Shown: positions 19,041-58,482 of the stretch, in pieces | Layout: each line of letters opens with the position of its first letter | Numbering within the stretch: position 1 is the first letter of the stretch | From: Eledone cirrhosa | Taxonomy: Eukaryota | Length of the DNA stretch: 64,000 nucleotides | NCBI GenBank assembly: GCA_964016885.1 | Contig: OZ024742.1 | Span: 41,664,001-41,728,000 of the forward strand | Direction of reading: 5' to 3' | Notes under the pieces: generated by a model | What the model saw: the letters and a program-made list of their open reading frames with translations, nothing else | Databases searched by the model: none | Told to the model about the DNA's origin: nothing | Program-made: the position numbers and the translations under genes

Positions 19041-19266
19041 TTAAAAATAAAGGTAAAAGAAACTTATAGGAGTGAAGAGGTTATCAAATAAAAATACGTA
19101 AACATTACGATCCTCAATCTGCACAGTGAGCATATACTGATCGTTAGGATTACAAGTATATATGAGCATTAAAGACGTATTATGTATGTTAACCCAAATT
19201 AGTGTGTATATGGACACTAGTTTGGGTTAATCATAGAAAAAGCATATAACGATATGTGCTTTTACG

Positions 19267-19362
19267 ATTCTCCAGAAAGGCCGGTAGATAGGTAAATATT
19301 GCTGATGAGTTGTAACAACAACGAAACTAGTTCAATGTTCCTTGTCTGGCTTTCTGGAGAAT
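19267..19362 (+). ncRNA. Type I hammerhead ribozyme with extended stem I, GUU site
   Basis: AATATTG-CTGATGA-GTTG taacaa CAAC-GAA-ACTAGT-T-CAATGTT, closed distally by attctccagaaag/ctttctggagaat (13 bp). Confidence 0.85.
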
Positions 19363-19628
19363 AGAGGAAAGGTGTTTCCTCGAAAACCAGTATGACTCTA
19401 AAAACCGGTTTGTCTGTGTGTTTACATACAGAATAGCTGGGTTGCTCACGGTAAAGTAACCAGTGAAAGACTTGTTACATCTACATATGTATACGTGTGT
19501 GTATTCATATGCACACTAGTATTTCAGTATACATATGTAGATGTACATTTTTAACTTAATTGTTTAAGCGTCAGTCATACAAAAGTGAGTTACAAACGAA
19601 ACGAAATTTAATTTCGTTTCGTTGTTTG

Positions 19629-19693
<65 letters not shown>

Positions 19694-22285: not shown

Positions 22286-22290
<5 letters not shown>
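22080..22290. mobile_element. Short rearranged pLTR fragment of PLE-A
   Basis: 22081-22203 matches 7190-7318 (hammerhead with a 7-nt deletion); 22215-22290 is the reverse complement of 7101-7172. Confidence 0.85.
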
Positions 22291-22337
<47 letters not shown>

Positions 22338-22448
22338 AGAAAAAAATGAAATGAAATTTCATTTCCCACTCTTAGTACGGCTGTTACTTAAATATAAGTA
22401 TGTACACTTACATACATATATGTATACAGACGTACAGTAGTATGTATA

Positions 22449-23340
22449 GTGAACTCTGTACAAGAACGAATTTCGAGAATTTCAGCTAATAAGAATATAT
22501 TTGATGAAAAAGCACATTATTACAACGAAGCGTTAGGTAGAGATGGGTATAGAAATAAAATTAAATACATCGATAATAATAATAATATAACAACTAACCA
22601 TAATCGTAACAATTTTAACTATGGTAACAATTTTAACAAGTATAATAGAAAACCTTACATTAATTCCGAAAGCCGAAAAAGAAATAGAACTAGGAACATA
22701 TTATGGTTCGCTCCTCCTTTCTCATTAAATATTAAAACCCCTATTGCTAAACTATTTTTTAAAGCTCTTGACAAATGCTTCCCTAGAACACATAGACATT
22801 ACTCAATTTTTAATAGACATACTATAAAATTAGCTTATTCTTCCACCAAAAATTTAGCGCAAAATATTAATAGAATTAATAATAGAAATTTAAAACCTAA
22901 CTAAAATACCAATAATAACCCAAGCAATATTCAATCTGATAAATGTAACTGTAGAAATAAATCTAACTGTCCGTTAAATAACAATTGCTTAGCTAAAAAT
23001 GTAGTATATAATTGTAACGTAAAATTCATTTAATTATGTGGGATCTACTTCCACAGAGTTTAAATCCCGCTTCAATAATCATAAAAATTATTTTACAGAT
23101 CCAAACAAAAAATCTTCAACTTCTCTATCTAGCCTATTATGGGACCTAAAACTAAAGAACGTTGAATATTCGTTGATTTGGAATATTATTTCGTAAGCTA
23201 CTCCTTTTAACTCCTCTTCAGAAAATTGCGATCTTTGTATAGAGGAAATATTCTTTATATTAAAGACCAAAAATTCCCTGAACTTAAGGAATAATTTATT
23301 CAGTTGCTGCAGACATATAATTAAACTCAACGCTTAAATA
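22449..23340 (+). pseudogene. 5'-truncated Penelope-like element PLE-D (RT thumb + GIY-YIG), decayed
   Basis: RISRISANKNIF...YYNEAL, ILWFAPPFS, IFNRHTIKLAYS, then CNCRNKSNCPLNNNC, YVGST, CDLCIEE, SCCRH with stops. Confidence 0.9.
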
Positions 23341-25124
23341 TAATTATAAATTTAAAATGTAGTATATAATTAATTAATTAATTTTATTAATATATTGAAC
23401 CTGTAGTGACCTACAATCCGCGGGCTCACATACATTCTCTGTGCGTGATTTGGCTCAACTCAGCCAATCAGCGCCAGGAGAAGAGGATGTATCCCTACGC
23501 GTCCTGAGGGAGAAATAGCCCGCGAAGATTTGAGGAATCTCACTCTTGCAGCTTGACCATGCTAAGGTAAACACCACTTGTTCTTTTGCTCCATAAGCAC
23601 AAACAATATGTAACGACACAACAATTTTACTACGGACCTGGCCAAACGCCTCAGCCAGTCGACCGCATTTTCTCTTGTAATCTTAATTGAATTATTTCAT
23701 TATTCTTGGCATGCCAACTTAATTCACTTCTTAACCTTTGTTAATAAATAATGTAAAAACAAGCTAAAGTCGTTGTCGATATTCCTATCATATCTTTCTA
23801 CCAAAGATGGTTCCTCGTGGCAACATTACAACTATCTAAATATAACTCTCTGCTAAAAACCTGTCGATAAATCATTAGATTCCTTCATCTTTTTTGACTG
23901 ATTATACACTCAAGTAAAAATAACTTTTCTTCCTAAATATAAATAAATATAAATATAATAAACTATTCTAGAGAAATATATTGAGAGCTCTTGAAAGGAG
24001 AAAATATTTCTTATTTCTTATTTTTTATTGTTTTTTTATTGTTTTTTTATTGTTCTGATAGCTTCTCCTATTTTCGAAAGTTTATCCTTTCAAAATTTTG
24101 AGTTAAATATACGTAAGATAAATTTCTATACTAAATCTATTAAACATACTATTATTTTGAAATTATAACTTAAAATACTCTATAATATTTTAAAGTTATA
24201 TTGCTTATAATTATATTTCCAAATTGTAATATAATTCTTTTGTATTTTATGTACTCAATTATACTATGTACTGTATTTATATATACTTCTCTCTTTATGT
24301 GAGTATATATGTATATGTGTGTATTGACATACATGTACATATGTTCTATGCGTTTTTATGAATGTATGTCTGTCTGTATGTATATGTATGCGTGATGCGT
24401 ATCTACCTATTGGCTGAGGGTACACACACATGTATATATATGTATATGTGAGAATTGTGTATATGCGTATGCGTGTATATCCATACAATTTGATTGCACT
24501 TAAGTATAGTGATTATCCCAACATTTGTGACAGATAGACATATAATAACAGCCATAAATACATAAAAGGTAATCCTATAAAACTTATATAAAAAGAAATT
24601 TTGTTTAATAACATAAAGTGTGTATAACATAAAATTTCCTTTAATATCTTAACAATTATAACATTTTAAAGATTCCTATATCTTAAATTAAATTAAAGAA
24701 TCCTTTATGCTTTGTGTGTATATATTATATACGTAGTTAGATATGTTATGTATTTTATAAGTGTGTATATATATTTATATGTATTTTTGCGTGTATATAC
24801 GTGTTATATGATATGTAGTTCTCTAGTAATATATGGATTTCTTAATGTATAGATCCCAATTTTTAATATATTGATCTCAGTTTTTAATATATTGATCTCA
24901 ATTTTTAAATGATTAACTAAACATCTAATCATATTTAAACAATGATTAATTTCTCATATTATATATGTATATTCCATTCATGATTATTAACATTTCTAAT
25001 TTTATTTATTCATTTCATCTCAATTGTTAAGTTAACTCAAGAAGATATGACTTAGAGTTTTCGTTCTCTCCCCTTCTCTCTGTCTCCTCTCTCTCTATAT
25101 ATATCTTTCTCTCTCTGTTGTATT

Positions 25125-25126
<2 letters not shown>

Positions 25127-25200
<74 letters not shown>
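25127..25200. repeat. (CT)n microsatellite
   Basis: Seen directly. Confidence 0.97.
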
Positions 25201-25202
<2 letters not shown>

Positions 25203-25478
25203 CTTCTTTATCTTTTTTTCTTTCTCTGTTACCCAACGGCTTATTTTTAAAATAAAAATATCCAATACTAATAATAATATAATTAAACAACTCCACTATC
25301 CGGGAGCTTCCAACAGTAATGCTTGCATTTTTTAAGGGTATGTCAATATTTATTTATAAAACTGATCTATATTATATTTTGTCTGATGAAAGCACACCAT
25401 AATTTAACTTGGTGTCCTTGAAATATGTATAATGAAGTGAATATGGTTTTATAAATATAGTTTCCATTTGTTAATATC

Positions 25479-25571
<93 letters not shown>

Positions 25572-25674: not shown

Positions 25675-25735
25675 TTTCATTTACCAGTGGTTTCTTAAAA
25701 GCAAACAAATTTTGTTTTCAATCATCAGAATGAAA
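25675..25735 (-). ncRNA. Type I hammerhead ribozyme of the PLE-C pLTR, GUA site
   Basis: TTTCATT-CTGATGA-ttgaaaacaaa...tttgcttttaa-GAA-ACC act GGT-A-AATGAAA. Confidence 0.85.
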
Positions 25736-29771: not shown

Positions 29772-32531
29772 ATATAGTGAAAAATTGAACGGGAACAAAA
29801 CAGAGAGGCAGTACGAACAAAGGTTTATTAGTTTCACGCTCTTGAGAGTGGGGTGATGGTGGGGAACGACGTTTCGGGCATAAGCCCTTCTTCAGGCGAA
29901 AAGTGTGTGGGAAGAGAGTTCCAAGGGTGTGTAGGGGAGTGGTGGAGAGACATATAGAAAAAAGGGAGTGAGAGGAAACGGTACAAATGAAATTAAATAT
30001 AAAAGCATAATAAAAATAAAAATAAACATGAAGTAAAACAAGTGGGGGAAGAGTGTGGGGCGTGTAGGGGTGGTGGCGAGTGGGGTGGGGAGAGGGAGGC
30101 GGGGTCTCCGAGCGGGGAGGGCTGAAGGTGGTGTGTGTGTGTAGGTGTACGTGTGTGTGTGTGTGTGTGTGTATGTGAAAGTAAGAGTTGGGGGAAGAAC
30201 GGAGTTGCATGTTCAGGAAAAAGTGTGTGTGTGGTGGGGTGTAGGTCGGTGTGTGTGTGCGTGTGTGGATGGGGAGGGGTCAGAGGGGTGGGGGGAGAGG
30301 ATTCCGGGGGCTGAGTGTGTAAATATGTGGTGGTACGCACGTGTGTGTGGTGTTTATACGTGTTGTGGATGTAGGTGGCGTGTGGGAAAAAAATGTTTTT
30401 GAGTGTATGTCCGTGGGTGAGTTCCTAAGGTAGTTCCGTAGAGGGTGGTGGGATGCTGGGTAATTTCCTTGTGATGTAGTTGATTCTTGGGAGAGATGTC
30501 CAATGTGTGTAATCCGTGGCTGGGTTGGTCGGAAGAGGGGAGATGTGGGGTGCGCGCGCAACAGAGAGTGATCAGAGGGTCAAGGCAGGAGGAGGGTTGT
30601 GTGTCTGTGTGTGCGGCGAGGTGGTCAGAGATTCAGGGCATAGCAGCAGTCGGGGAGAATGGTAAGTGAAGAAAGTCGGTGTGTCAGTGTGTGCGGAGGT
30701 GCGGTGGACAGGGGAGAGGATGGGTAGGTGTGAAAGTTGGAGTGGGGAGGGGTGTGTGTGTTAGTAGAGGTGTTAGTGGGATGTGTGTGTGTGTGAGAAG
30801 GGGTGTGGGTGGTGCGGGGGGAGAAAGGTGTGGGGGCCGTTGGAGGGAGTGTAGTGTACTGGTGTGTGTGTGCGTGTTTGGATGAGTGTGTATGTGGTGA
30901 AGGGGGTGTTAGTGGGTGTTAGTAAACTGGTGGTGGGGAAAGGGTTGAATGCGGGTGTTAGTGGGGGGTCAGTGGTGGTAGGGTGTGTAGAGTGGGTAGT
31001 GTAAGTGGGTGTGTGTGTTCGTGTGCATGGGGTCGGGGGGTGTTAGTGATATTAGTTGCGTGTAGAGTGGGTGGTGTAAGTGGGTGTGTGTGTTCGTGTG
31101 AGGGATAGTGGTGGTAGTAGGGTGTGTGGTTAGTGTGAGCGCGTGTATATATGTACCGGTGGGTGTGTGCGTGTGATAAGGGGAGGGGGGAGAAGAGAGG
31201 AGGGATGTTAGTATTGTTAGATGGGGAAGGGTGGTCGGTTGTGGGGTGGAGGTGTTAGTATTGTTAGTTGTGGGATGGGCGGTGAAAAGGAGGAGTGTGT
31301 TAGTGGGGGATATGTGTGGGGGAGGGGGGAGGGAGGGCGAAGGCTAAAGGAATAAGGGTGGGGAGTTCAGGCCGGGGGGAGTGTGGGTCTGTAGGGTGAA
31401 GATGGTGCGTTGTTCGACCCTGAGGAGGGTGACGGCTGTTGCGTGGCATTGGAGTAGGCCACAGACTGTGAGGTGGTGCGCGGAATGTCCAGGGGCGCCA
31501 AAGTGGCGGGCGATGGGGGAACTACCGCCGAAACGAATATCTCGGAGGTGTTCGGTAAAACGGTCCGCCAGGCAACGTCCAGTCCGTAGGTAGGTTGCGC
31601 TGCACTCCGTTCAGCGAAGTCCATAGACTAGGTTGGAGGAGGTGCAGCGGAAGGCATGCCGGACAGAGAGAGAGTGGCCGTTGGGATCCTGGAAGGTGGT
31701 GGTGTTGGTGATGTGGGGACAGGTGTTGTAACGAGGCCTGGAACGGGGAAGGGAACCGGGGGGTAGGGAGCTGTGGACGAGGAGGGTGCGGAGATTGCGT
31801 GCGCGTTTGAATGAGGGGAGTGGTGGGGCTGGGAAGATGTGGGAGGTGGAGGGGTCGGACTGGAGGCGTCGGAAGAGGCGGAAGATGGTGCGATGGAGGG
31901 GTATGGTGGAGGGGTGGTAGGGGATGGGGAAGGGGAGACGGTGGGTGGGTGGGTGTGCGGTGGCGTGGGGTGAGGGTGGTGGAGCGGTGGACAGCACGGG
32001 CGCGGGTGAGAGCGGTGTGGACGAGAGGGGGGGAACCTCTGCGGATGAAATGGCTGACTAGGGAAAGGGCCTGGGACTCAAAGTCAGCATCTCGGCTACA
32101 GAGGCGCCGGATCCTGAGGAGTTGGAAGTAGGGAATAGAGTGTTTATTATGTGTAGGGTGGGAAGAGGTGAAGTCGAGGTAGGAGTGGGAGTCGGTGGGT
32201 TTGAAGAAGGCGGAGGTGACGAGGGAATGGTGGGAGGGGTCGAAGGCGACGGAGATGTCTAAGAAGTGGACGTGGGTGATGGAGATAGAGGTGGTGAAGT
32301 GGAGGGAGGGGTGGAAGGAGCAGAAGAAGGAGAGAAAGGACTCGAGCTGTTCTCGGGTGAGGGTCGTGGCTCCGATACAGTCGTCGATGTAACGACCGTA
32401 CAGTTCGGGCGTGGGGTCGGTGTACTGGGCAAAGATTTGGGTCTCAACATGGCCAACAAGAAGGTTGGCATAGTTTGGGCCCATTCTTGTACCCATGGCT
32501 ACCCCCGTGAGCTGTTGGTAAAACTCACCAT
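29772..32531 (-). mobile_element. 5'-truncated Neptune-like Penelope element PLE-E with C-rich sense strand
   Basis: FYQQLTGVAMGTRMGPNYANL, YGRYIDDCIG, FLDISV, KPTDSHSYLDFTSSHP, SIPYFQLLRIRRLCS, FRCTSSNLVYG, LADRFTEHLRDI; minimal hammerhead near the 3' end. Confidence 0.88.
29865..29898 (-). ncRNA. Minimal hammerhead ribozyme of PLE-E, GUC site
   Basis: gc-CTGAAGA-a-GGGC ttat GCCC-GAA-ACGT-C-gt; stem III reduced to the palindrome ACGT, stem I weak. Confidence 0.8.
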
Positions 32532-32544
32532 ACATATATATATA

Positions 32545-33128
32545 TAAGTATGTATACGTACATACATATATGTATACAGACGTACAGTAGTATGTATATA
32601 TATACATACATGCACACATATATATATGTACGTATGGGTTCACTGAACATTTATTATAATGCTCGGTGTGTTTGTAAACAAACATCCCGTATTAAGCCGT
32701 AGTGTCTCGCAACCATCGTTGCTCATTTGTTCAACACTGACAAAGGAACGCTGTACTAGTTTCAAGCTTATTAGCTATCGTCAGCAACGTATACCTTCCT
32801 GCCAGATGATTGAACGTCTGAAAGTATATACATTCCTTATGCATATTAACGGCTGAGCAGCCTAATTTGCATATCGAGTGGGTTAATCGCCGGGTGCACC
32901 GAAAAGGATAAACGGAAAAAATGAAACGAAATTTCATTTCCCAATCTTAGTACGGCTGTTACTTAAATATAAGTATGTATACGTACATACATATATGTAT
33001 ACAGACGTACAGTAGTATGTATATATATATACATACATGCACACATATATATATGTACGTATGGGTTCACCAAACATTTATTATAATGCTCGGTGTGTTT
33101 GTAAACAAACATCCCGTATTAAGCCGTA
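32545..33128 (-). mobile_element. Retrozyme-like unit, 425-bp monomer, ~1.4 copies
   Basis: aagtatgtatacgtacatac...gtattaagccgta repeats at 32546 and 32971; other copies at 41562-42100 and 22335-22448. Confidence 0.8.
32748..32790 (-). ncRNA. Type I hammerhead ribozyme, GUA site
   Basis: ACGTTG-CTGACGA-tAGCT aata AGCTt-GAA-ACTAGT-A-CAGCGT. Confidence 0.85.
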
Positions 33129-34953: not shown

Positions 34954-35014
34954 TTTCATTTACCAGTGGTTTCTTGAAAGCAAACACATTTTGCTTTCAA
35001 TCATCAGAATGAAA
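34954..35014 (-). ncRNA. Type I hammerhead ribozyme (PLE-C family)
   Basis: Inverted duplicate of 35284-35344. Confidence 0.88.
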
Positions 35015-35283: not shown

Positions 35284-35344
35284 TTTCATTCTGATGATTG
35301 AAAGCAAAATTTGTTTGCTTTCAAGAAACCACTGGTAAATGAAA
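35284..35344 (+). ncRNA. Type I hammerhead ribozyme (PLE-C family), GUA site
   Basis: TTTCATT-CTGATGA-TTGAAAGCAAA atttg TTTGCTTTCAA-GAA-ACC act GGT-A-AATGAAA; 7-bp stem I and 11-bp stem II are perfect. Confidence 0.92.
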
Positions 35345-35440
35345 TAATTACCTTATGTTGTTTATTACATAACTATTAAGGTCTGTAACCTACATAGAGC
35401 ACTCTTTTTTCCTGGGCCTTTCCGACGGAATTACTTCATT

Positions 35441-35492
<52 letters not shown>

Positions 35493-35495
<3 letters not shown>

Positions 35496-38123
35496 AAAAT
35501 ATTTCTGAAGAATATTCCCACCCCCTCTAAGAATTCTTACGAAAAACTCTTAATTGCTAGTGTTAACTCCTTCGTAAAAAGGATTAGATGGCGTGCTTTC
35601 CACTATGATATTAATAGGAATAGGAAGGACCCCAGGAATAGAACTCATTTCAATAACTATGGCTTCAAAACTTATAAGAGCCCACCACATAGTGTTCTAT
35701 TAGATAATTTTGAAAATGACTTACTCTCTCTAGTCAGAAATATTAAGTATAGGCCAAATAATAGACATAGAAATTATAATAAGTTTGATAAGTTCCAGTC
35801 TAGACTTAAAAATATTGTTAAGAGTTTTAGTGCGAATAAGTCTATTCTTGTCCCGGCGGATAAGACTAAGAATCTATACTCTATGGATTACAGTGCTTAC
35901 CGTGACTTTATTTATAAGGAGCTGCATAGAAATTATAAAAAGACTACGCAATATAATTTGAACCATATCAATAGTGAGGGTCTTAAAATAGTCTCGGACC
36001 TCGGCCTCGATAAGTATACCCAGCCATATTACCCTAGAGAACCGAGATTCACTCTTAAGGATCATAAGGTAGACTTCATTAGTAACCCCTCTGTTAGACT
36101 CATCTGTCCTTCTAAGTCCGATATAGCCATAATCAGTAAAAGAATCCTTGACCTTATTATACCAGATGTTAGGGATAAAGTTAATTTTAACCTATGGGGG
36201 AACACTAAGGAAGTTATAGATTGGTTCTCTGGCATTAATAAACTTGAATCTAATAAATTTATCCAGTTCGATATTGATGCCTACTACACATCGATTTCAC
36301 CCATCCTCCTCAATAAAGCCTTAATGTTGGCCATGAGAGTGTCCAGCCTTACACGATCACAGGTAGATATTATACTAGCAGCCCGTAGAACTATCATTAA
36401 TTTTGAGGACACATTTTGGACCCGTAAAAACACGCCCAACAATTTCGACGTTACAATGGGTTCGAGTGATTCGGCCCAGGTAACTGATCTTGTTGGGTTG
36501 TTCCTCCTAAATGAACTATATGTTACCTTTCCGCACCTTAAAGGCGGACTATATCGTGATGATGCATTGTTTGTGATTAACTCTAGCACCAACAATGTCG
36601 AGCATAATAAGAAGCTTTATAAGTTTTTTAAAAGCTATAACCTTTCGATCACGATAGATAGAAACGATAGAGCGGTCAACTTTTTAGATGTGACTTTGGA
36701 CTTGGTCACTAATAGTTTTAAACCCTTCCATAAGCCTAATGAAATACTTTCTTATGTTAGTGCCAATTCTAACCACCCCAAATCTATGATAAGCTCTATA
36801 ATTAAGGGCGTATCTAATAGGATTTCCATACTCTCTAAGGACGTAGGAACATTTAATGAACATGCGGAGTACTATAATAATGCCCTAGCTAATTCCGGTT
36901 ACTCTAGTAAAATACATTATAATAATAGTAACCTTAGAAAGTCTCCGCTTACTTATAATAATAATAACATAATATCCCATAATATGGCCATGAATGAGAG
37001 TAGGAAGCATAATAATCGTAGAAATTACATAGGTGTATCTGAACCCATCCATAAGTTAACCCACCGGACTCGTAATAGGGAATATAATACCTCTAGGAAT
37101 CAAGTCGAACCCTCTGAGCGCTCACTCATTGGTGATGCTTTTGCTAGATCTAATTCTAATAATGTTGTTTCTACTGATCCTATTATTGGCCCTAATCCTT
37201 TTGATAGGATTCCAGACAGCAGCAGATCTACTACAGGTAGAAACAGAAAGAGACTTAATGGAATTTCGGCTGATTCTAATAATGTGGTTTTAACTAATCC
37301 TTGTAGTAACCCTAGTCTTAATAATGGGATATTGGATAATGGTAGAGTCGGAAAGGATAAAAATAGAAGGAGACTAAATACTTATTTTAACCCGCCATAT
37401 AATCAGGAAGTATTAACTAATATCCCTAGGTCTTTCTTTTCTATCTTAGAGAAAAATTTCCCCCCTTCTCATAAATACCATAGTATTTTTAATAAAAATG
37501 TTATTAAACTTTCATTCTCTACCACCCCTAATATTAGTTCTCATTTAGCTAGCACTAACAATAGGAAAATTAGGGATGGATACTCCTCTCTACATACTAC
37601 TAGTCAGAACAGATCTGCAAATGCCTTACCACCAGAGCAGACCTTATCTAATAGTAATCCTACGTGTAATGCATCACTACTTCAGCCAATCAATAGCACC
37701 CGGAAGTGTAACTGTAGAGTGAGTGCTAACTGCCCTTTAAACGGTAACTGCCTCTCTAAGAACATCGTTTATGCTTGCGTAGTTATAACTAATTCCTCTA
37801 ATAGAACTTATATAGGCTCTACATCTAACACTTTTAAGACTAGGTTTAATTCTCATATCTCTAATTTCAAACATGTTAAGTTTAAGAAATCTACTTCTTT
37901 AGCACACTATATCTGGGATCTTAAGGGGGCTAATATACCATATAGCCTTAATTGGCGTTTAGTAGCACGCTCTAATAACCTTTCTACACATACTAAATTT
38001 TGTAATCTCTGTATCCTCGAGAGACACTCTATAATTTTCTCTAGTCTGAGATATTCTCTTCTTGCCCCCACGCTATTTCTAATTCTTACTTTTATTATAA
38101 ACCTAAAGGTTCTAGTAGTGTAA
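35493..38123 (+). CDS. Penelope-like element PLE-B RT + GIY-YIG endonuclease ORF (876 codons, no ATG start)
   Basis: LKNIP, PADKTKNLY, LKDHKVDF, IQFDIDAYYTSI, FDVTMGSSDSAQV, GLYRDD, NFLDVTLDL, CNCRVSANCPLNGNC, IVY...YIGST..TFKTRFNSH, CNLCILE; lacks the terminal LN..SEL.SxCRH seen in PLE-A and PLE-D. Confidence 0.92.
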
Positions 38124-39831
38124 ATTGTATCCATTAGCTGATATATTCCATTACTTATTTTTTTAGTTTAGGTTCATTTTGTTTACCACCATTATTATCA
38201 TCATTATTATCATTGGTTTTTGACAACTTTTTATTCTAGCTCTCATAATCTTTTGGCTACTATACCATATCTATCTTGTTACACATTAAATTTTCACTAT
38301 TAACACCTTATGAGTATATATCTGATTATATATTTTATATTATTTTATTTCATTTTATTTTATTTTATTTGGATTCTTCTTTGGATAACTAACCCCCCCC
38401 CCCCCCCTTCACCACCACCCCATGCACACATAAACTTATTGCTAACCCCTTCAAATATATTATGATTATATTTAATCCCCTTTTTTATGCTCCTTTCTAT
38501 TATATAATACAGTATATTGATTATGATTTTATGCTCCTTTGTATCCTTCATACATTTCTTCTTTTTTTCTGTCCACATTAGCCTACCATAATTCTGCTTA
38601 AAGTCAGTTTTTTAGATATCGTTATGTAAATGATAGTAGAATATTTCATTCCTTTCTATATATATTTATAGTGATATCTTAATGTTTAGGGATTTTGATT
38701 ACTTAGCTAATATTGTATTGCCTTATTAAGTATTTTAAATATTTTCAATATTAATTTATCAAATAGGGTTTTCGAGTCATTTATCCGGGTTGTTTCCTAA
38801 GTTTTTACTTAACTGCATGTGAGACCTAAGTAAATACTTTTGTTTTTGTTTTTTGATTTCCGGTCGATTTTATTTATTTATTTATTAATACTACTGTGCA
38901 TAGTATTTTCTGTCTGGCCCTTATTCACTCATTCACATATGTGTCTGTTTACCAACCTTGTAATTATAAGTAATTATATATTATATTATGTTCATTATTT
39001 TATATTGAAGTTGTTATTCAACTCTTTGTAAATGTACTATTGATCCTTATTACTTACCGATGATTTTATGTACCATTATGATATGTTAAATTTTATATAT
39101 TCTGTAAGATGTTTATATTTTTGTACCATCATAATTTTGGTATTGTACAATATATTTTTTTTTTCTCACCTGCTCTGTAACTCTATATGAATTCATTTGT
39201 TAACTTACATGCCATTATATATTATATATTATTATATTATTATTATAGTGTTATTGTGACATCTATATTGTTTGTGTAAATTAACCGGAGATTATCTATT
39301 ATATTATATTATATATTATATAATTATAGAGTTTATTATATATTATATGTGTTACTTTTAATCATTTCTTTACTTCATGTTTTACTGTATATTAGATATA
39401 CGTATTATTTTTATTTTTATTCCTATTATGCTTATTTATATTTAAACTCTTAATAAGGTTTAATTTGTGCTGTTAATGATGGAAATGTGTATTGATGTAT
39501 ATGTATATGTGCGTACGTGTGTGTATATATATACATATGTATATTGTGCCTTTTAATTTTAATTTTAATACTGTTACAAGTATATTATATTATATTATAT
39601 TATATTGTATTACATATAGTACTATAATTCCCGCTCTATATAACCACCTTTGTTTAGCTCTAGTTTTTTGCTTTGGACTATATTTGTAATATGGTTCAAA
39701 ATGTTATCCACCTCCTTAGTGATTTTTATTATATATTTTTACGCATAATCTTCCAATACTTTAGTGTATGTACACTCCATATTCTTCGGAGTTTTCGGCT
39801 TGTATTGGCCGATAGTGCTTCTTGTAGTTTT

Positions 39832-39880
39832 GATTGCCCTGATGAGTCCTTAATAGGACGAAACATTGTTGGCTAATAAA
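39832..39880 (+). ncRNA. Minimal type I hammerhead ribozyme followed by AATAAA
   Basis: GCC-CTGATGA-GTCCT taat AGGAC-GAA-AC att GT-T-GGC-taataaa. Confidence 0.85.
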
Positions 39881-40047
39881 GACTTTTGATGTATTGAAGG
39901 CTTCTTTGTTTTATTTTCATAATTCATCGGCTCTGTTTAATTACATTGAGCTATACCTTTTACTGTCATTTCTATAATACGAAGAGGGTGTTTAACTCCA
40001 ACACGCTCCAGTATTTTAATCCTTATATATATATATATATGTATATG

Positions 40048-41209: not shown

Positions 41210-41271
41210 TTCATTCTGACGACTGAAGACACATATAAATATCTGCCTTCAAGAAACCACTGGTAAATGAA
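41210..41271 (+). ncRNA. Type I hammerhead ribozyme, diverged PLE-C family copy
   Basis: TTCATT-CTGACGA-cTGAAG...CTTCAa-GAA-ACC act GGT-A-AATGAA. Confidence 0.78.
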
Positions 41272-41561
41272 ATAATTATCTTATGTTGTTTAGTACATAA
41301 CTATATATATATACAAACACACGCACACACATACATATATACAAACACACATATACACGCATATAAACACACACACAAACATGTATATAAACACACACAC
41401 ACACACATATATATTTTTTGTGTGTGAGTATGTATATATATATATATATATACATACACACACAAAAATATATATAAACACACACACCCATATATATATA
41501 CACACACATTTACATATAAACACACACACTCATATACACAGCCACTTTACTATGAAACAAT

Positions 41562-42100
41562 ATAAAAACGGAAAACATGAAACGAAATTTCATTTCTCAC
41601 TCTTAGTACGACTGTTACTTAAATATAAGTATGTATACGTACATACATATATGTATACAGACGTACAGTAGTATGTATATATATATACATACATGCACAC
41701 ATATATATATATGTACGTATGGATTCACCGAATATTTATTATAATGCCCGGTGTGTTTGTAAATAAACATCCCGAATTAAGCTGTACAGTGTCTAGCAAC
41801 CATCGTTGCTCATTTGTTCAACACTGACAAAGGAACGCTGTACTAGTTTCAAGCTTAATAACTATCGTCAGCAACGTATACCTTCCTGCCAGATGGTTGA
41901 ACGTCTGAAAGTATATACTTTCCTTATGCATATTAACTGCTGAGCAGCCTAATTTGCATATCGAGTGAGTTAATCGGCCGGGGTACCGAAAACGATAAAC
42001 GGAAAAAATGAAACGAAATTTCATTTCTCACTCTTAGTACGGCTGTTGCTTAAATATAAGTATGTATACGTACATACATATATGTATATAGACGTACATA
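41562..42100 (-). mobile_element. Second copy of the 425/431-bp retrozyme-like unit
   Basis: aaacgaaatttcatttctcactcttagtacg repeats at 41580 and 42011. Confidence 0.8.
41835..41877 (-). ncRNA. Type I hammerhead ribozyme, GUA site
   Basis: ACGTTG-CTGACGA-tAGTT atta AGCTt-GAA-ACTAGT-A-CAGCGT. Confidence 0.82.
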
Positions 42101-42112
42101 TATATATGTATA

Positions 42113-44850
42113 TAGAAACGAGAAAGAATTAACAGGTAAATTAGAAGAAGCAATCAAGAGCGAAGATGTGGCCAGAGTGCTGGCATCGAGGACGGCCTTG
42201 AACCAGTTTTTCGATGCAAAGCACGAAGGCTGCGTCATTCGAAGTAAAATACGTGCTCTAGGTAATGAGGGGGCCAAAGCCGTTGGCTGGGCCCGCGTGA
42301 CAGAAGCTAAGAGTGGAAATCGATCCACCATCCGGTCATTGCAAGACGAAGATGGACGGGTGATCCGGGAGCCTAAGCAGATGTGCAAGGCCTTTCAAAG
42401 GCACTTTGCCCGATTGTTCGGGTGAGGCGAGGGTCCGGGCGGGGCCGTGGATTTCGGTCCATACCTCGACGACCTGCCGCGTCTCTCGAGGCAGAGTCCT
42501 GCGAGGGACCAATCTCGGCTGATGAGATCGGAGATGCGCTGAGCCAATGCAGCAGACGCAAATCTCCAGGTCTCGATGGTATACCTTACGAACTTTATTT
42601 AGCAATGCCGGTATTCTTCTCCGAACTCCTCGAAGCGGTCTACTGCAATTGGCAGCAGAACGGGAGAATTCCTTGTTCTGTAGCCAAGGGCGTAGTCACG
42701 CTGGTGAGGAAGGACGAGAACAAGGGAGATAGTATAAATAATTTTCGGCCCATAACCCTGCTAAACACAGAGTTAAAGATTTTGGCCAAGGTGTTAGCAA
42801 AGAGGTTGGCGCTTGTCGTGGGTGGCCTGGTGGGAGATGCGCAGACATGTGCTATCCCATCCAGGTCCATTCACAATAACCTCCACCTCATGCGATACAT
42901 CATAGAGAGGGTTGGCAACAAACCCGGCTTCGGTGGGGCCCGATCAACTTGGATCAGTCTAAGGCCTTCGATAGGGTCGACCATGGTTACCTGGATGCGG
43001 TGCTAGCGGCGGCTGGGTTCGGTCCTGTTTTCAGAGGCTGGATCACTGCCTTACATAGCAACCACATCTGTTCTAGGATCAAGGTGAACGGCTACCTTTC
43101 AAAGCCGTTCGAAATCACACGATCCATTCGACAGGGGTGCCCTCTCTTCTCCCTTCTGTACGTATTGACTCTCGAGCCTTTACTGAGGAAGTTGGAGTTG
43201 TTGCAGGGTATCCCCCTGGAACCAGGATTGAGCAAAGCGGTGTCAGCCTACGCCGATGACATAACAGTAATGGTATCGACCGACTCGGAGATCGAGGCGA
43301 TCGGTACCTTACTGGAGGATTACGAAAGGTTGTCAGGAGCGAAACTGAACCGGGAAAAATCCATCGGGCTGCAACTCGGAACGTGGAGAGGCAGACCGAT
43401 GCCTCCCGACGGTGTCGTCGGACACTGGACGGAGGGCCCGGTAAAGTTGCTTGGGGTTTGTTTTGGACCGGACCTCCAGGTGGAAAAGAACTGGAACGAG
43501 GTTACGAACAAGATGTTTGCACTAACCCAGAAATGGGCCAAGAGTAAGCTGTCCCTAAAAGGCCGGGCGGAGGTGGCGAACATTTACATAGCGTCCGTCA
43601 CTTACTACCGCCTGACTGTCGTGCCTTGCCCTAAGGAAACACTCACCACCATGGAACGCATGCGCTTCCAATTTCTTTGGAAGAAGCGCCCTCCTATGGT
43701 GAGAAGATCCATCTGCTGCCAACAACCTTCGAAAGGAGGGCTGGGGATGCCGTGGTTGATGATGCGTAGGCACGCATTAAGGCTACGGCACCTACAGGTA
43801 TTCCTCACTGGTCAACCGGTGTGGGCTCCGTTCATGAAACGAGCCTTTCCGAGACTCGTCTCGCTCACCGAGCTGCAGTCCTGGGTCAAGCAAAGATCCG
43901 GAAAACTGGGAGACTGGCACACTGAGTGTGCTCAGGCGCTCAGGGCTCTCTGGCAGGCGGGCCAGGCCATCGGTGGAGAATCCACCTCATCATTCTATAG
44001 AGGGCTGGTGGCTAGCAGGGGTGATGACACCCTTGGAGAGTCGCTGGACATGGACGAGGACGAACTGGCCAGCCTGTTCGGTAGGACTTTCGGCCCGGGA
44101 CCAATGGACAACTTCCAGAAGTCACTAGCCTGGCAGTGCTACCGGGGGGCTCTACCCATTCGAGAGAGGCACTACAGACACGGGCGCCCGGGCAGGGATC
44201 CCTCAAAAAAGATTTGCCCTAGATGCGTGCGTCACGAAGAAACTGTTGCGCACGCATTGGTGCAATGTTCGGGCGTGGCTGATCTGTGGGGCTACGCCGA
44301 ACGACTGCTGTCGCGGGTGGCGCCGATTCGATTGACCACCGAGTCCGTGATGACAATCAAACCACCTCCCCTCTTCACAAAGGAAGCAAAGGCGGTTTTT
44401 CTGTGCGTAATAGCCATGTTGAAAGAGGTTGTTTGGTGGACACGATTGAAAGGTCTGAGGTCAGGCAACTTCCTCTCTGGCCATAGTCTGGTCTACTTCT
44501 TCCGATATCACTTCGGAAGAAGGATAAGAATGGAGAGAGAGGTGCTTGGCCACAGGCAGTTTTATGAAAGGTGGGTGATAGTGGCGAGAATGGCTCGTGT
44601 AAATGGGCCTTCTCTGTATACCATCCTGTAGGTAAAGAAGTAAAGGAGAGGGGAGCACCTTCTCCATGTACTCCCCGGGCAAAGGATTGCACACTTTTTC
44701 GGGGGTGTGTGCAACCCCCATCACGTCCCCTCCCTTTTGAGGTTATTTTCGATTATTTTCATTTTATACCCTTTTTACTCGATTGTATGTAAACTCCCCC
44801 TTTGTATTTGTCCCTTCTTTTTATGCCTTTATGGTAAATAAAGAAATATA
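42113..44850 (+). mobile_element. 5'-truncated L1/Tx1-like LINE (ORF2 RT + CCHC finger)
   Basis: KSPGLDGIPYELY, FRPITLLNTELKILAKVLA, DQSKAFDRVDH, RQGCPL, AYADD, GGLGMP, CPRCVRHEETVAHALVQC; frame breaks near 42425 and 42940; 3' aataaagaaa. Confidence 0.93.
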
Positions 44851-45645: not shown

Positions 45646-47205
45646 GCGAATTGATCTAGATGAAATGCAGTTTGGGTTTGTGTCAGGTAAAAGTACCACA
45701 GACGCGCTTTTCCTTGTACGACAACTACAGGAAAAGTACCTAGCTAAAAGTAAACCCCTATACTTAGCTTTCCATTATCTGGTGGGCTCTTACAAAACTA
45801 GGTGTTGATGAATGGCTTGTGAGAGCTATACAAGCCATGTATAAAGAAACAGTCAGCAACAGAGTGAGATTTATGTATAAGCTAAACAAGCTATAGCTTA
45901 GGGCCCCCACTTTCTTGGGGCCCCCAAAAAATTGAAAAAGAACGGTGTGTACATTTCCAAAATATAAGATTAAAAAACACTAAAATAATGCAATAGTTTT
46001 AAACAGTTTTCTGCTTTAATATTGAACTTTTTGCAGTTTTTATAACATATAAAGGGCCCCATTATCTCAAATAGCTTAGGGTCTCATCAAATCTAAATCC
46101 GGCCCTGGTTAGCAAGGTTAGAATTAACAACGAATATAGTGAAGAATTTAGCGTAAAAGTTGGTTTTCATCAGGGCTCTGTCCTTAGCCCCGTCCTATTT
46201 ATTATTGCCCTTCAGACTATAACAGAGGAGTTCAAGAGCGGCTGCCCATGGGAACTTCTATATGCAGATGATCTAACGCTCATAGCTGTATCAATGGCTG
46301 AACTAGAGAAGAAATTCCAAACATGGAAGCATGGCCTAGAATCAAAAGGCCTTAAAATTAACTTGTCTAAGACTAAAGTTCTAGTATGTAGGAAGGAAAA
46401 TATGGTACTGGTCCCCTCTGGGAAATGGCCATGCTCAGTGTGTAGGAAAGGAGTAGGCAGAAACTCCATTTTATGTCCCAAATGCAAAGTATGGGTGCAT
46501 AAAAGATGTAGTGGGATCACAGGTAAGCTAACTAAGAACATACATTTTATATGTGGCCGGTGCTCAGGTGCAATAAGTAGTAGCAAGTGCCCACAGGATA
46601 CTAGCTCCTTCCATTGCCCAGATGGTTCTATAGAAATAGTGGACACCTTCCGTTACCTGGGTGACAAAATCAGCAGTGGTGGAGGGTGCTCTGAAAGTAC
46701 AGTAGCCAGAGTCAGAACGGGATGGAAAATGTTCAGAGAGCTTATACCACTATTGGCCGCTAAAGGTTTCTCTCTAAAAATGAAAGGCAGACTGTATGAT
46801 GCCTGCATACGAACAACAATGTTACATGGCAGTGAGACATGGGCATTGTGTGCAGAGGATCTGCGCAGACTGGAGAGGAACGAAGCTTGCATGCTCCAGT
46901 GGATGTGTAATACGTGAACGGCAAAACATAAATGAACTGAGAAATTAGGAATAAGAAGGATCAGATGCTGTTTACTCAAGAGAAGACTATGTTGGTATGG
47001 TCACTTGATGCGCATAACAGACGACAGCTGTATAAAAAAGTGCAGGGAGATCAAAATTGATGGTAGTTATGGAGTAGGCAGACCCAGAAAAACCTGGGAC
47101 GATTTGATAAATTCCGACCTTACACACTTACACCTCTCCAAGGCAATGTCACTGGACCGAGATCTTTGGCACTACGCAGTAATACAGAAGACCCGCTTTG
47201 CCTAA
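45646..47205 (+). mobile_element. RTE-clade LINE, RT and C-terminal region, decayed
   Basis: MQFGFVSGKSTTDA, HQGSVLSPVLF, ELLYADDL, KWPCSVCRKGVGRNSILCPKCKVWVHKRC, FRYLGD, MLHGSETW, GRPRKTW. Confidence 0.92.
45860..46107. mobile_element. hAT-type MITE nested in the RTE element
   Basis: Ends cagagtgagattta / taaatccggccctg; flanking 8-mers gtcagcaa and gttagcaa (7/8 TSD). Confidence 0.8.
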
Positions 47206-47380
47206 GTACAAAGCGAAACCTAGTCAGTGGGCACCTCTTAACCAAAATACACCCCCATCCACTACCCCTACCCCCACCTGGTCTCTATGTAATGTACCCT
47301 GCTTCCCCCGTTCTTCCATTCTTTCCATGCCTGTCTCTTGACCTTAACTGCCTCATCTATCTTATTGGTCCACCACCAAA

Positions 47381-48130
47381 TCACTCCAAGGCTTTTGTGT
47401 TCACGACCGTCCATCTGTCATGTCCTCTGATGAGGATAAAATCTATCTGACTAGAATGCTCCCCTGATCTGTAGGTGATCAGATGGTTGTCGGGTTTTTT
47501 GAAGTTTGTGTTACATATCGACATGCCATTGGCGTCGCAGAATTCTAGAAGCCTGAAACCTTCTTCATTTCTTGTGGCCTCCATGGACTCTATAGAAGCC
47601 GTCACGGTGTTTACCGACGTGTCTGTTAAAATGTTGTTTGTTAGAGCAGTAGTGTGCATTAGGGAATCGTAAAACCTATCTTTAAGTTCATCTGGCAATC
47701 CCAATTGGGGTGCGTAAGCCGATATTATTGTGGTAATTGTTTTATTCAGGACTAGCCTGAGTTTAATGATTCTTGCATTCACCCTGTTTACTGAGATTAC
47801 CTTATCTATCCATTTGCCAGCTAGTAGGATACCTACACCACCCATCCCATCGTCATTTCCCACCCAGAAAAATTTGTAGCACTGACTTTTGCCTACAAGG
47901 ACTCTAGCAGACTCTCCTCTCCATATAGTCTCTTGCACACAGCATACATCAATTTCCTTTCGCTCTAGCATCTCTACAATTTCTCCTGCTATTCCTTTCA
48001 TTGATGGTTCCAACTCGGAGTTTTGGGCATTTGCCAACATTTGTGAGAAAGGGTAAATTTTTGCAGGGGTGTGTGTATGCTTCCTGTCTCTGAATTAAAG
48101 CTTCGCAGGGGTGCTTGGTAACTCGCGGAT
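47381..48130 (-). mobile_element. RTE LINE AP-endonuclease fragment
   Basis: IDVCCVQETIWRG, GGVGILL, IISAYAPQ, RNEEGFRLLEFC, SQIDFIL. Confidence 0.9.
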
Positions 48131-48323
48131 TCATATTCATATATATATATATACAACCCATGCTAGCGTGGAAGATGGACGTTAAATGAAGATGATGATA
48201 TATATATATATATATATATATATGTGAGTGTGTATGTGTGTGTGAAAAGTAAACAGAAACAACAGAGCAAACAATACAGTACAATGAAGATATATATTTA
48301 TTAACATTTGATAGGGAAAGAGT

Positions 48324-48358
48324 CTTAACATTTCGGATGATAGTCCGTCATCAGATGG
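48324..48358 (-). ncRNA. Decayed minimal hammerhead motif (PLE 3' end type)
   Basis: CTGATGA-c-GGA ctatca TCC-GAAA-tgtt; stems I and III pair poorly. Confidence 0.5.
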
Positions 48359-49750: not shown

Positions 49751-50977
49751 CTATTCTTTTGATGTTTGGTTTTCATGAAACTTTTGCTTGTGATTAGCCA
49801 AACTCCTTTTCTCAGAGTAAGATTTACCACAAATGTTACAATGATATGGTTTCACACCTGTGTGAACAGATCTGTGACGGTTTAAACTCTGCTTATCAGC
49901 ATATGATTTACCACAAATATCACAAATATATGGTCTCTCACCTGTGTGAATACGAACATGAATGGTTAAATGACCTTTCTGAGAGAATGTTTTACCACAG
50001 ATATCACAGTGAAATGGATTTTCACCTGTGTGAACACGTACATGTTGAGTTAAATGAACATTTTGAGCAAATGTTTTGCCACAGATATCACAGTGGTATG
50101 GTTTCTCACCTGTGTGTAAACGGATATGTTTAGTTAATCCACTACTGGTAGAGAATGTTTTACCACAGATATCACAGTGGTATGGTCTCTCACCTGTGTG
50201 GATACGAACATGTTGAGTTAAATGACCATTTGCAGAGAATGTTTTACCACAGATTTCACAATGATATGGGTTTTCACCAGTGTGTATGTGTATATGTCTA
50301 ATTAATGCACTGTTGCCAGAGAAAATTTTATCACAGATACGGCAGTGATATGGGTTGTAACTAGTGTGCATGTGCATGTGTCTAGTTAATGCATTACTAA
50401 GAGGGAATGTTTTACCACAGATATCACAATGGTATACATTATTTACTGTGTGAACTTGTTTGTGATCCATTAACTTATTCCATACAGAGAACGATTCTCC
50501 ACAAATATCACATTGATATGGTTTCTCACCTGTGTGAATACGTTTATGAACAGTCAAATTACTTCTTACAGAGAATTTTTTCCCACATGCATCACAACAG
50601 AATGGATTTTCACCTGTGTGAATACGTATATGTTCTGTTAAATGACCATTCTGAGAGAAAGCTTTACCACAAATATCACAGTGGTATGGTTTTTCACCAG
50701 TATGCAAACGTATGTGTTTATTTAATCCACTTCTGTCAGAGAATCTTTTCCCACAGACATCACAGTGGTATGGTTTTTCCCCAGTGTGTGTACGTATGTG
50801 TGTAGTTAATCCAATGCTTTCAGAGAATGTTTTACCACAGATTTCACAATGATGTGGGTTGTCACCAGTGTGCAGACGTATGTGTCTAGTTAATGCATTA
50901 TTGCGAGGGAATGTTTTGCCACAAATGTCACAGCGGTATGTTTTCTCACCTGTATGAGTATGTTTACAATTGGTCAT
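49751..50977 (-). CDS. Poly-C2H2 zinc-finger protein, 14 fingers (408 aa from first ATG)
   Basis: Uninterrupted CxxC...HxxxH array with TGEKPY-type linkers; no KRAB/BTB/SCAN domain visible; splice acceptor tttatttcag at 51156. Confidence 0.9.
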   Translation of the reverse strand: MTNCKHTHTGEKTYRCDICGKTFPRNNALTRHIRLHTGDNPHHCEICGKTFSESIGLTTHIRTHTGEKPYHCDVCGKRFSDRSGLNKHIRLHTGEKPYHCDICGKAFSQNGHLTEHIRIHTGENPFCCDACGKKFSVRSNLTVHKRIHTGEKPYQCDICGESFSVWNKLMDHKQVHTVNNVYHCDICGKTFPLSNALTRHMHMHTSYNPYHCRICDKIFSGNSALIRHIHIHTGENPYHCEICGKTFSANGHLTQHVRIHTGERPYHCDICGKTFSTSSGLTKHIRLHTGEKPYHCDICGKTFAQNVHLTQHVRVHTGENPFHCDICGKTFSQKGHLTIHVRIHTGERPYICDICGKSYADKQSLNRHRSVHTGVKPYHCNICGKSYSEKRSLANHKQKFHENQTSKE

Positions 50978-51639
50978 ATTACCTCTTTTAGAAAATGTTT
51001 TCACACTGGTATAATCTTTTTATAATTTCACACCAACTTAATCAAGGTTATAGTGAACTGTTATTTGTGTTCTTGATAATTTCTGGTTTCAAAATCTAAC
51101 AAATCTCTTGATATAACTTGAATTAACAATTACCATCTCAACGTCACCACAAACCCTGAAATAAAAAATATATGGTAGAACAGTTATGGATATGTAGTGT
51201 AAATATATGATGAGATGTGTAGGTGATGGTCATTAGAAAAGGAAATAATGGGATACAGAGATAGAAAAAGGGTTCAAAGATGGTAGCAATACTGACACTG
51301 TTGTCTTAGACATTGATGTTGTGGATTAGTGGTGGTTGTGATGTGGTTGTAGCTAGAGTGGTGTGGTGATAGAAGTGCAGGTAATGCTCGTGGATTGGTG
51401 TTGTTGGTAGTGGTGGTAGCGATGATGTTGAAGAATTTCTTTATGGATATATGTCATTCATATTTGTATTATTGTTACTCTTTCCCTGTCAACAATCTCT
51501 TGCACTACGATTTCTCTTCAAGACATATACATGAGAAGTTATTTAGCATTTAGCCTGGTGTTCATTAGTCACACCAAAACAAATGCACACATATTACATT
51601 ATTTTTATCATAATTAATGTTGGATTTATTGTGTATATT

Positions 51640-57865: not shown

Positions 57866-58482
57866 GTTATCTTTTCAGAAAATGTTTTCCCAGAGATATC
57901 ACAGTTGTATATTTCTATAACCTCAATTAACATATCACCAACATAATCAAGGTTTATAGTGCACTGTTATTTGAGGTCTTGGTAATTTCAGGTTTCTGGT
58001 TTGAAAATCTGACAAACTTCTTGATATATCTTGAATCAACAATTACCATCTTGATGTCACCACAAACCCTGAAATAAAAAAAATATATGGTGGAAATCAT
58101 AATGAACAGTTAACATAAAGATTATTAGAGAGACAGGACTTAACTAGAGACATTGAATGTTATAATATAAAAGATCAGAAAATATCTAGAGGAAAGATAC
58201 AACAGTATGGATATGTAGTATAAATATATGATGAAATGTGTGTGTGATGGACTTTAGAAAGATGTTTATAACAGAAACAGTTAAATATAAACATATTTAG
58301 TAATCAACCAATAATGGTTGTTAAAATATACAAACTATAAACATATTTTTATTTAATTATTTTCTATTAACACATGTTTAATCGGAGATGTTACACACGA
58401 GAAACTACAAATATCGACGGGATGCAGGTGGAATTAGTTTAATGGGAATTTTTTTTAAAGTCCGTTCTACACAAGATAAACC

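What the first reader, a model, noticed from the sequence alone, without database searches (positions are those of the whole stretch)
32545..33128. 425-431 bp non-coding hammerhead monomer, a candidate circular-RNA retrozyme family
Seen: the unit occurs as ~1.3-1.4 head-to-tail monomers here and at 41562-42100, plus a fragment at 22335. The two long copies start at different phases of the monomer and each has one minus-strand HHR with palindromic stem III (ACTAGT). Circularly permuted, more-than-unit-length copies are what reverse transcription of a circular or multimeric RNA would give (inference).
Basis: partly seen in the sequence, partly recalled or inferred. Interest (0 to 1): 0.8.

Follow-up and report, generated by a model that had tools for sequence, protein, structure and literature searches.

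The report
Penelope-driven hammerhead retrozyme family
A 420-431-base non-coding repeat with a hammerhead-ribozyme motif, present in thousands of copies, carries the insertion marks of Penelope-like retrotransposons and is likely copied into the genome by their enzyme from a likely circular RNA, which makes the open question of what moves animal retrozymes testable.

Summary
In detail: 1.37 and 1.29 head-to-tail units of 425 and 431 nt, each with one minus-strand type I hammerhead, plus a fragment. The ribozyme core has 8,639 exact copies in this 3.0-Gb genome; three related families give 39,468 motif hits.

The copies are not freely permuted. 172 of 204 arms end 3' at one of two fixed sites about 55-60 nt apart, mostly joined to (TA)n; 5' ends vary. 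In head-to-head inverted insertions, 37 of 41 pair one site with the other. This is the two-site 'tail' signature of Penelope-like reverse transcription.

No sampled arm runs on into an ORF, so it is not the pLTR of a coding element. Units and arms of one insertion share a haplotype, and copying runs through the ribozyme cut site without stopping. That fits a circular template (0.6); long uncut multimers (0.3) are not excluded. No RNA data were available.

Verdict: a new non-LTR retrozyme-like family of a known kind, with direct genomic evidence of Penelope-type mobilisation.

The parts
32539..33128 (-). Copy A: 1.37 units (period 425 nt); 3' end (left) at the short site S, in a TA-rich target; 5' truncated (right)
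32737..32800 (-). Type I hammerhead of copy A: core 32784-32754, 2-bp stem III with palindrome ACUAGU, predicted cut between 32754 and 32753, extended stem I
32908..32963 (-). 'Tail' segment between the two 3' end sites (T at about 32908, S at about 32964); predicted hairpin
32970..33062 (-). Long AU-rich self-complementary hairpin just 5' of site S (source of the spurious miRNA-family hits)
41560..42114 (-). Copy B: 1.29 units (period 431 nt); 3' end (left) at the tail site T; 5' truncated
41823..41886 (-). Hammerhead of copy B (core 41871-41841)
22332..22448 (-). Fragment C: T-type 3' end on (TA)23 (22289-22334), 5' end fused head-to-head to a truncated coding PLE
22449..25479 (+). 5'-truncated Penelope-like element (Neptune-like by motif reading): RT C-terminus and endonuclease, long 3' UTR, own hammerhead-like motif at 25383, ends at its own short (S) site on (TA)n; likely the second arm of one chimeric insertion with fragment C
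19231..19635 (+). Copy of sister family F2 (467-nt unit, same hammerhead type, T-type end on (TA)n)

Best explanation
This is a non-coding 420-431-nt repeat family with one hammerhead motif per unit, two fixed 3' ends and inverted-arm insertions in (TA)n, and it likely spreads as a non-autonomous retrozyme whose RNA, predicted to be cut and closed into a circle, would be copied by a Penelope-like reverse transcriptase/endonuclease supplied in trans. Steps: (1, inferred) a locus with two or more hammerheads is transcribed; two hammerheads pair through the ACUAGU palindrome and cut at GUA, releasing a monomer that is ligated. (2, inferred from shown end statistics and PMC11167929) the PLE protein nicks both strands of (TA)n DNA; one 3' end primes at site S (about 219-221 nt after the cut, in the loop of a small predicted hairpin) and the other at site T (about 275-281 nt, at the foot of the tail hairpin). 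(3, shown as a pattern) each cDNA runs back through the cut site and stops at a roughly constant 0.35% per nt, giving 0.2-3 units. (4, inferred) the two cDNAs join head-to-head by microhomology, or one is resolved alone. (5, shown as a pattern) some inserts later expand at DNA level into arrays of 30 to over 100 units.
For: Ends: S 95, T 77, other 32 of 204 arms. 37 of 41 inverted pairs with standard ends are S+T, p=3.6e-8. Genome-wide, 2,478 exact T-end/(TA)n joints vs 2,597 read-through copies. One template per insertion: discordant diagnostic sites 19 of 228 within arms (103 expected) and 13 of 228 between the two arms (101 expected), against 79,161 of 175,123 between loci (78,269 expected). 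No pile-up at the cut: 4 ends in phases 0-6 over 77 passages, 1.9 expected, p=0.13; spacer across the cut intact in 200 of 203 crossings. Ribozyme under selection: core non-major letter frequency 1.3-1.5% vs 3.9% elsewhere; 94.3% of cells paired, 7 of 16 pairs with two-sided change, covariation 0.323 vs 0.135 shuffled, 0/500. The unit is colinear in three families, F1 vs F2 286 identical of 485 columns. Circular folds z -6.5 to -12.2 in 7 of 7 monomers; 27 of 126 consensus pairs compensate. Longest stop-free frame 63 aa. Intact PLE ORFs of about 915 aa exist and a coding PLE family shows the same S/T/(TA)n anatomy. Fragment C (T) + PLE arm (S) obeys the S+T rule. Sampled long arrays carry variants that dispersed copies lack.
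Against: No RNA evidence of expression, cleavage or circle. All template statistics are also expected from a few long homogeneous linear multimers: five haplotypes make up 58 of 97 insertions, and only 4 of 138 private variants are shared between units. Very long F1 arrays exist. In vitro a PLE used uncut RNA and hammerhead mutants did not affect insertion (PMC11167929). Only 1 of 9 Xenopus retrozyme dimers cleaved in vitro (bioRxiv 10.64898/2026.07.22.740005). F1 has U-U instead of the usual G10.1-C11.1 pair (16 of 22 rows unpaired) and F2 has a GUU triplet, so cleavage may be weak. The fold z-scores are inflated by AU palindromes. The driver is not identified: the two coding families checked share no pLTR homology with the unit, and the chimera evidence is 2 loci, only one with both ends read. 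The sample leans to contig C1 and to HHR-containing copies.
Confidence: 0.6

Rival explanations
1. Same non-autonomous PLE-driven element, but the template is a long linear, largely uncut multimeric transcript from a few homogeneous master arrays. The hammerhead cuts rarely or has another role, and no circle is needed.
For: Few major haplotypes (58 of 97 insertions in 5) and rare sharing of private variants (4 of 138). Arrays of 39 or more units and of about 55 kb exist, the latter with a major haplotype and no fixed private difference. A PLE used unprocessed RNA in vitro. Read-through of the cut site is expected.
Against: The 55-kb array's units carry 14.2 variants each with many shared, against 4.1 in dispersed copies of the same haplotype. 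The 51.77-Mb array has fixed variants at about 1% in dispersed copies. Both look like products, not sources. Stems covary between families about 40% apart, so cleavage seems selected. A linear route needs a separate way to regenerate homogeneous tandems.
Confidence: 0.3
2. The unit is just the pLTR/3' end of a longer coding PLE; these are truncated tandem and inverted pieces of it.
For: Tail, inversions, (TA)n target and hammerhead are all standard for coding PLEs. Copy A and fragment C abut PLE ORF pieces. Xenopus retrozymes resemble pLTRs.
Against: No arm of 204 continues in sense into a PLE ORF; tblastn used 6 window proteins only. Tandem joints are seamless unit-to-unit. No fixed 5' boundary. 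60 loci of two coding families show no pLTR homology to the unit. Sister-family loci (60) show no such linkage either, judged from hit positions.
Confidence: 0.06
3. A DNA-level satellite or rolling-circle DNA element; the hammerhead is incidental.
For: Long arrays show DNA-level expansion: non-adjacent units share variants, and L147 alternates A-B-A-B.
Against: Fixed 3' and variable 5' ends with polarity, the S+T rule even at the ends of the 31-unit and 55-kb arrays, dispersal over many contigs, RNA-type covariation.
Confidence: 0.04

Closest known systems
Metazoan non-LTR retrozymes (Cervera & de la Pena 2020, PMC7229834; coral, mussel, axolotl)
   Same: Non-coding tandem unit of a few hundred nt, one type I hammerhead per unit, GC <45% (36-38% here), thousands of copies, weak stem III suited to dimer cleavage, highly paired predicted fold.
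   Different: Unit 420-431 nt (sisters 466-502) is above the 170-400 nt given there. Here: two fixed 3' ends, inverted arms, (TA)n targets and no evident TSD; the words inverted, tail, truncat, microsatellite have 0 occurrences in that main text. Circular RNA is shown there, untested here.
Vertebrate non-LTR retrozymes as non-autonomous PLE derivatives (bioRxiv 10.64898/2026.07.22.740005)
   Same: Proposed dependence on PLEs; monomers, dimers, multimers and long arrays.
   Different: Their evidence is co-occurrence and pLTR homology. Here it is the insertion signature itself, and no homologous pLTR was found in the two coding families checked.
EN+ Penelope-like elements (Poseidon PAc, PMC11167929; Neptune/Naiad anatomy, PMC8557442)
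   Same: Two internal initiation sites defining a tail, AT-rich targets, both-strand priming, 5' truncation, partial tandems, inverted copies, hammerhead upstream of the tail.
   Different: No ORF; the tail is about 55-60 nt rather than 30-40; the unit closes on itself.
Non-autonomous Chlamys elements such as MRC1 (PMC8557442)
   Same: Non-autonomous PLE-type elements with multicopy head-to-tail insertions.
   Different: Those resemble their autonomous families at the 3' end, and that clade lacks canonical hammerheads.

Membership tests
non-LTR retrozyme | Type I hammerhead in each unit | tested here: met
non-LTR retrozyme | Short tandem units (dimers to multimers), many loci | tested here: met
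   33 of 172 standard arms hold 2 or more hammerheads; arrays
non-LTR retrozyme | Non-coding, low GC | tested here: met
   longest stop-free frame 63 aa, GC 36%
non-LTR retrozyme | No LTR-internal region-LTR layout | tested here: met
   seamless tandem units; PBS/PPT were not searched separately
non-LTR retrozyme | Self-cleavage of the RNA | not testable with these tools
   only conservation and covariation
non-LTR retrozyme | Accumulation as circular RNA | not testable with these tools
   no RNA holder listed
PLE-mobilised (non-autonomous) element | Two 3' end sites defining a tail, tail on one arm only | tested here: met
PLE-mobilised (non-autonomous) element | 5' truncation, partial tandems, inverted copies, AT-rich targets | tested here: met
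   59 inverted pairs; TA-rich 3' flank in 110 of 172 standard vs 5 of 32 other arms
PLE-mobilised (non-autonomous) element | Identified autonomous partner | tested here: inconclusive
   2 head-to-head chimeras (window C, L106); no homologous pLTR
autonomous PLE (pLTR of a coding element) | Unit continuous with an RT-GIY-YIG ORF | tested here: not met
   0 of 204 arms, with 6 window proteins as queries

The most novel reading that the evidence does not exclude
One viroid-sized RNA circle is primed twice, at two fixed hairpin sites, by a Penelope-like reverse transcriptase that nicks both strands of (TA)n DNA and rolls around the circle. This single event explains the tail, the inverted arms and the more-than-unit copies, and the same route may regenerate the pLTRs of coding PLEs. 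The about 39,000 motif copies are then a population-scale record of circular-template reverse transcription, and T+S chimeras name the driver.
Probability: 0.45. Interest if true: 0.75.

Novelty: new member of a known kind. Interest (0 to 1): 0.52.

Why it matters
A 2020 review states that metazoan retrozymes show no motif revealing which retrotransposon moves them (PMC7761336), and a 2026 preprint argues for PLEs from co-occurrence and homology. This family shows the PLE two-site initiation signature directly, in thousands of copies. It also gives exact predictions (circle size, junction, two priming sites, candidate driver) for testing whether a circular RNA is a real reverse-transcription template. 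A 430-nt cis-acting substrate would also be a compact tool for working out how PLE tails and inversions arise.

Tried and rejected
- RNA evidence: no RNA holder listed among 6 runs. Laying 4 contig runs gave very deep cover in X1 and thin partial cover in X4-X6, kind not on record; not used as evidence.
- Rfam: miRNA-family hits are microsatellite artefacts below the gathering scores. It listed hammerheads only at 19284-19355 and 39833-39877, both below gathering.
- Pfam (0 families for 3 proteins) and PDB (0 hits) did not classify the PLE proteins; 'Neptune-like' and 'Poseidon-like' rest on motifs I recall and on passages of PMC8557442.
- Partner by homology: 30 loci each of two coding families show no pLTR homology. 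Hits there are the window's own fragment C, one separate relative insertion upstream in L259, and AT-rich noise.
- Random circular permutation: rejected.
- Linear cut-to-cut monomer as sole template: rejected, no pile-up at the cut.
- Sloppy template jumping at the cut: 3 of 203 crossings had a changed spacer length, in line with controls (120/125, 163/163, 49/53, 235/239, 121/122 intact). The script printed 'without indel 0' because I set the expected length to 12 instead of 11; I counted from the printed list.
- Rows dropped: of 268 segments, those touching locus edges or duplicated were removed (214 left), then identical 5' junctions (204). The pair rule (-40 to +25 nt) missed some overlapping inverted pairs.
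- Earlier scan notes: none on this genome; two on other genomes did not bear on this.

Full report
Observation. The repeat is as described. Copy A (32539-33128) has period 425 nt and 1.37 units, copy B (41560-42114) period 431 nt and 1.29 units, fragment C spans 22332-22448. Each long copy has one minus-strand type I hammerhead core with a 2-bp stem III whose sequence ACUAGU is a palindrome, and a predicted cut after GUA. The isolated motif does not fold better than shuffles and Rfam did not list it, so I tested it by comparison across copies.

Family size. The genome is 3.0 Gb; genome size, the zinc-finger clusters and the repeats suggest a cephalopod, which is my inference and untested. The exact 25-nt core occurs 8,639 times, control 0. 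A looser motif occurs 39,468 times, control 1, covering this family (F1), a young 467-nt sister (F2; one copy at window 19231-19635; 286 identical of 485 columns) and a 466-502-nt sister (F3). All are colinear over the whole unit. In 22 motifs, 94.3% of cells pair, 7 of 16 pairs change on both sides and the covariation score is 0.323 against 0.135 shuffled and at most 0.088 when slid (the rows are related and I chose the structure, so this is not a probability). Core columns vary less than the rest (1.3-1.5% vs 3.9%). Cut-to-cut monomers folded as circles reach z -6.5 to -12.2 in 7 of 7 (25 shuffles each), helped by AU palindromes; 27 of 126 consensus pairs compensate. No frame exceeds 63 aa.

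Ends. From 150 loci I kept 204 distinct arms; the sample leans to contig C1 and to copies holding the ribozyme region. In ribozyme sense the 3' end lies at site S (about 219-221 nt after the cut) in 95, at site T (about 275-281) in 77, elsewhere in 32. 110 of 172 standard ends have a TA-rich flank against 5 of 32 others. Genome-wide, 2,478 copies join the T nucleotide exactly to (TA)n and 2,597 read on into the next unit. 59 insertions are head-to-head inversions; of 41 with two standard ends, 37 are S+T, 2 S+S, 2 T+T (p=3.6e-8). Junctions overlap in 34, are blunt in 2 and have extra bases in 23. This matches PLE biology: an inverted truncated copy and a tail at one end only (PMC8557442, passages), and two internal initiation sites that define the tail, with both strands of AT-rich DNA cut and extended (PMC11167929, parts 1-2 of 4 read).

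Template. 103 of 172 standard arms exceed one unit and 33 hold two or more hammerheads. At 10 polymorphic columns, units of one arm disagree at 19 of 228 sites (103 expected) and the two arms at 13 of 228 (101 expected), one comparison per locus; between loci disagreement is at chance. So one insertion comes from one haplotype. Among 66 arms ascertained just downstream of the cut, 5' ends fall at about 0.35% per nt with no significant peak at the cut (4 of 77 passages, 1.9 expected, p=0.13); the strongest of 22 bins has uncorrected p=0.02. The cut-site spacer is intact in 200 of 203 crossings. A linear cut monomer is therefore not the usual template. A conserved cleaving motif whose cut site is copied through seamlessly is most simply a religated circle (inference). 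Against this: five haplotypes cover 58 of 97 insertions and private variants are shared in only 4 of 138 cases, as a few long homogeneous master arrays would also give. Such arrays exist: about 55 kb at C1:96.98-97.04 Mb (three stretches sampled), 39 or more units at C1:51.77 Mb, and 31 units of F2. They keep the S+T ends where both were read (31-unit and 55-kb arrays), but their units share variants in a DNA-level pattern, and dispersed copies lack those variants (14.2 vs 4.1 variants per unit; fixed array variants at about 1% elsewhere). They look like products, but only a few were sampled.

Driver. No arm of 204 continues in sense into a PLE ORF (six window proteins as queries). Intact PLE ORFs of about 915 aa are present, with their own different hammerhead and pLTR. 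The family at 22449-25479 has S and T ends about 90 nt apart, (TA)n targets and S+T inversions. The window copy ends at its S site while fragment C, fused to it head-to-head, ends at T, with (TA)n outside both. That is what one insertion made from two different RNAs would look like, but it is one case at even odds. L106 is a second T arm fused to a relative of that family; its far end was not classified. Pfam and PDB did not name these proteins; 'Neptune-like' is my reading of the linker cysteine motif.

Known systems. Non-LTR retrozymes (PMC7229834: passages, sections 14 and 17 read) match in unit, ribozyme, GC and tandem habit, and were shown to be circular in coral, mussel and axolotl; PLEs were named only as strong candidates. 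The 2026 preprint (parts 1-3 of 5, whole main text) adds co-occurrence and pLTR homology; its supplements are closed and were not seen. PMC4209133 (parts 1-2 of 4) describes palindromic stem III and dimer folding, and proposed circles as templates for PLEs. PMC7761336 (passages) says no motif reveals the driver. Seven searches listed no paper on this family or on tail/inversion marks in retrozymes. The library lacks most subscription papers and repeat databases were not searched, so the family may already be catalogued as a non-autonomous Penelope repeat.

Verdict. It works like a non-LTR retrozyme and meets every membership feature testable from DNA; cleavage and circularity are untested. PLE-type mobilisation is strongly supported (about 0.9, the first two explanations together); a circular template is favoured (0.6) over linear multimers (0.3). 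New member of a known kind, with evidence that makes an open question testable. Interest 0.52.

Noticed in passing
window 19231-19635; L181-L210: Young sister family F2, 467-nt unit, copies mostly 97-99% identical, same two ends and inversions; cleavage triplet GUU; best target for experiments.
   Followed up: partly
G000:C1:96983000-97039000; C1:51771500-51789000; C1:5738327-5752443: Satellite-like arrays of the units; the first and third are bounded by an S arm and a T arm. The 55-kb array's units differ by about 8%, more than dispersed copies of the same haplotype (3.4%).
   Followed up: partly
window 35373-40022: Nearly full-length Penelope-like element (916-aa open frame) with a hammerhead at 39833-39877 and a 3' end on (TA)n; many intact relatives in the genome.
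   Followed up: partly
window 25682-25728, 34961-35007, 35291-35337, 41223-41265: Another hammerhead-like family with stem III palindrome ACCACTGGT, in inverted arrangement at 34961/35291.
   Followed up: no
window 29864-29895 and 48317-48354 (minus strand): Further hammerhead-like cores of other families.
   Followed up: no
window 31522-32530 (minus strand): Truncated RT with a Poseidon-like motif (recalled label) directly abutting the S end of copy A; whether this is a target site or a template switch is unresolved.
   Followed up: partly
unit phase about 312 and 353 (window about 32866-32873 and 32823-32830, minus strand): An octamer ATGCAAAT, kept in all three families, and a TATA-like stretch lie between site T and the next hammerhead; a possible internal promoter (motif names recalled, untested).
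   Followed up: no
window 49751-51019 and 56237-57874 (minus strand): Two C2H2 zinc-finger array ORFs (84-nt period).
   Followed up: no
window 9202-11235 (minus); 42115-44631 (plus); 46075-48094 (minus): A 677-aa open frame resembling a DNA transposase, and LINE-type RT/endonuclease remnants (labels from recall).
   Followed up: no
L147: 4.5-unit arm with alternating A-B-A-B units (0-2 differences within type, 13-15 between), i.e. a duplicated dimer.
   Followed up: partly
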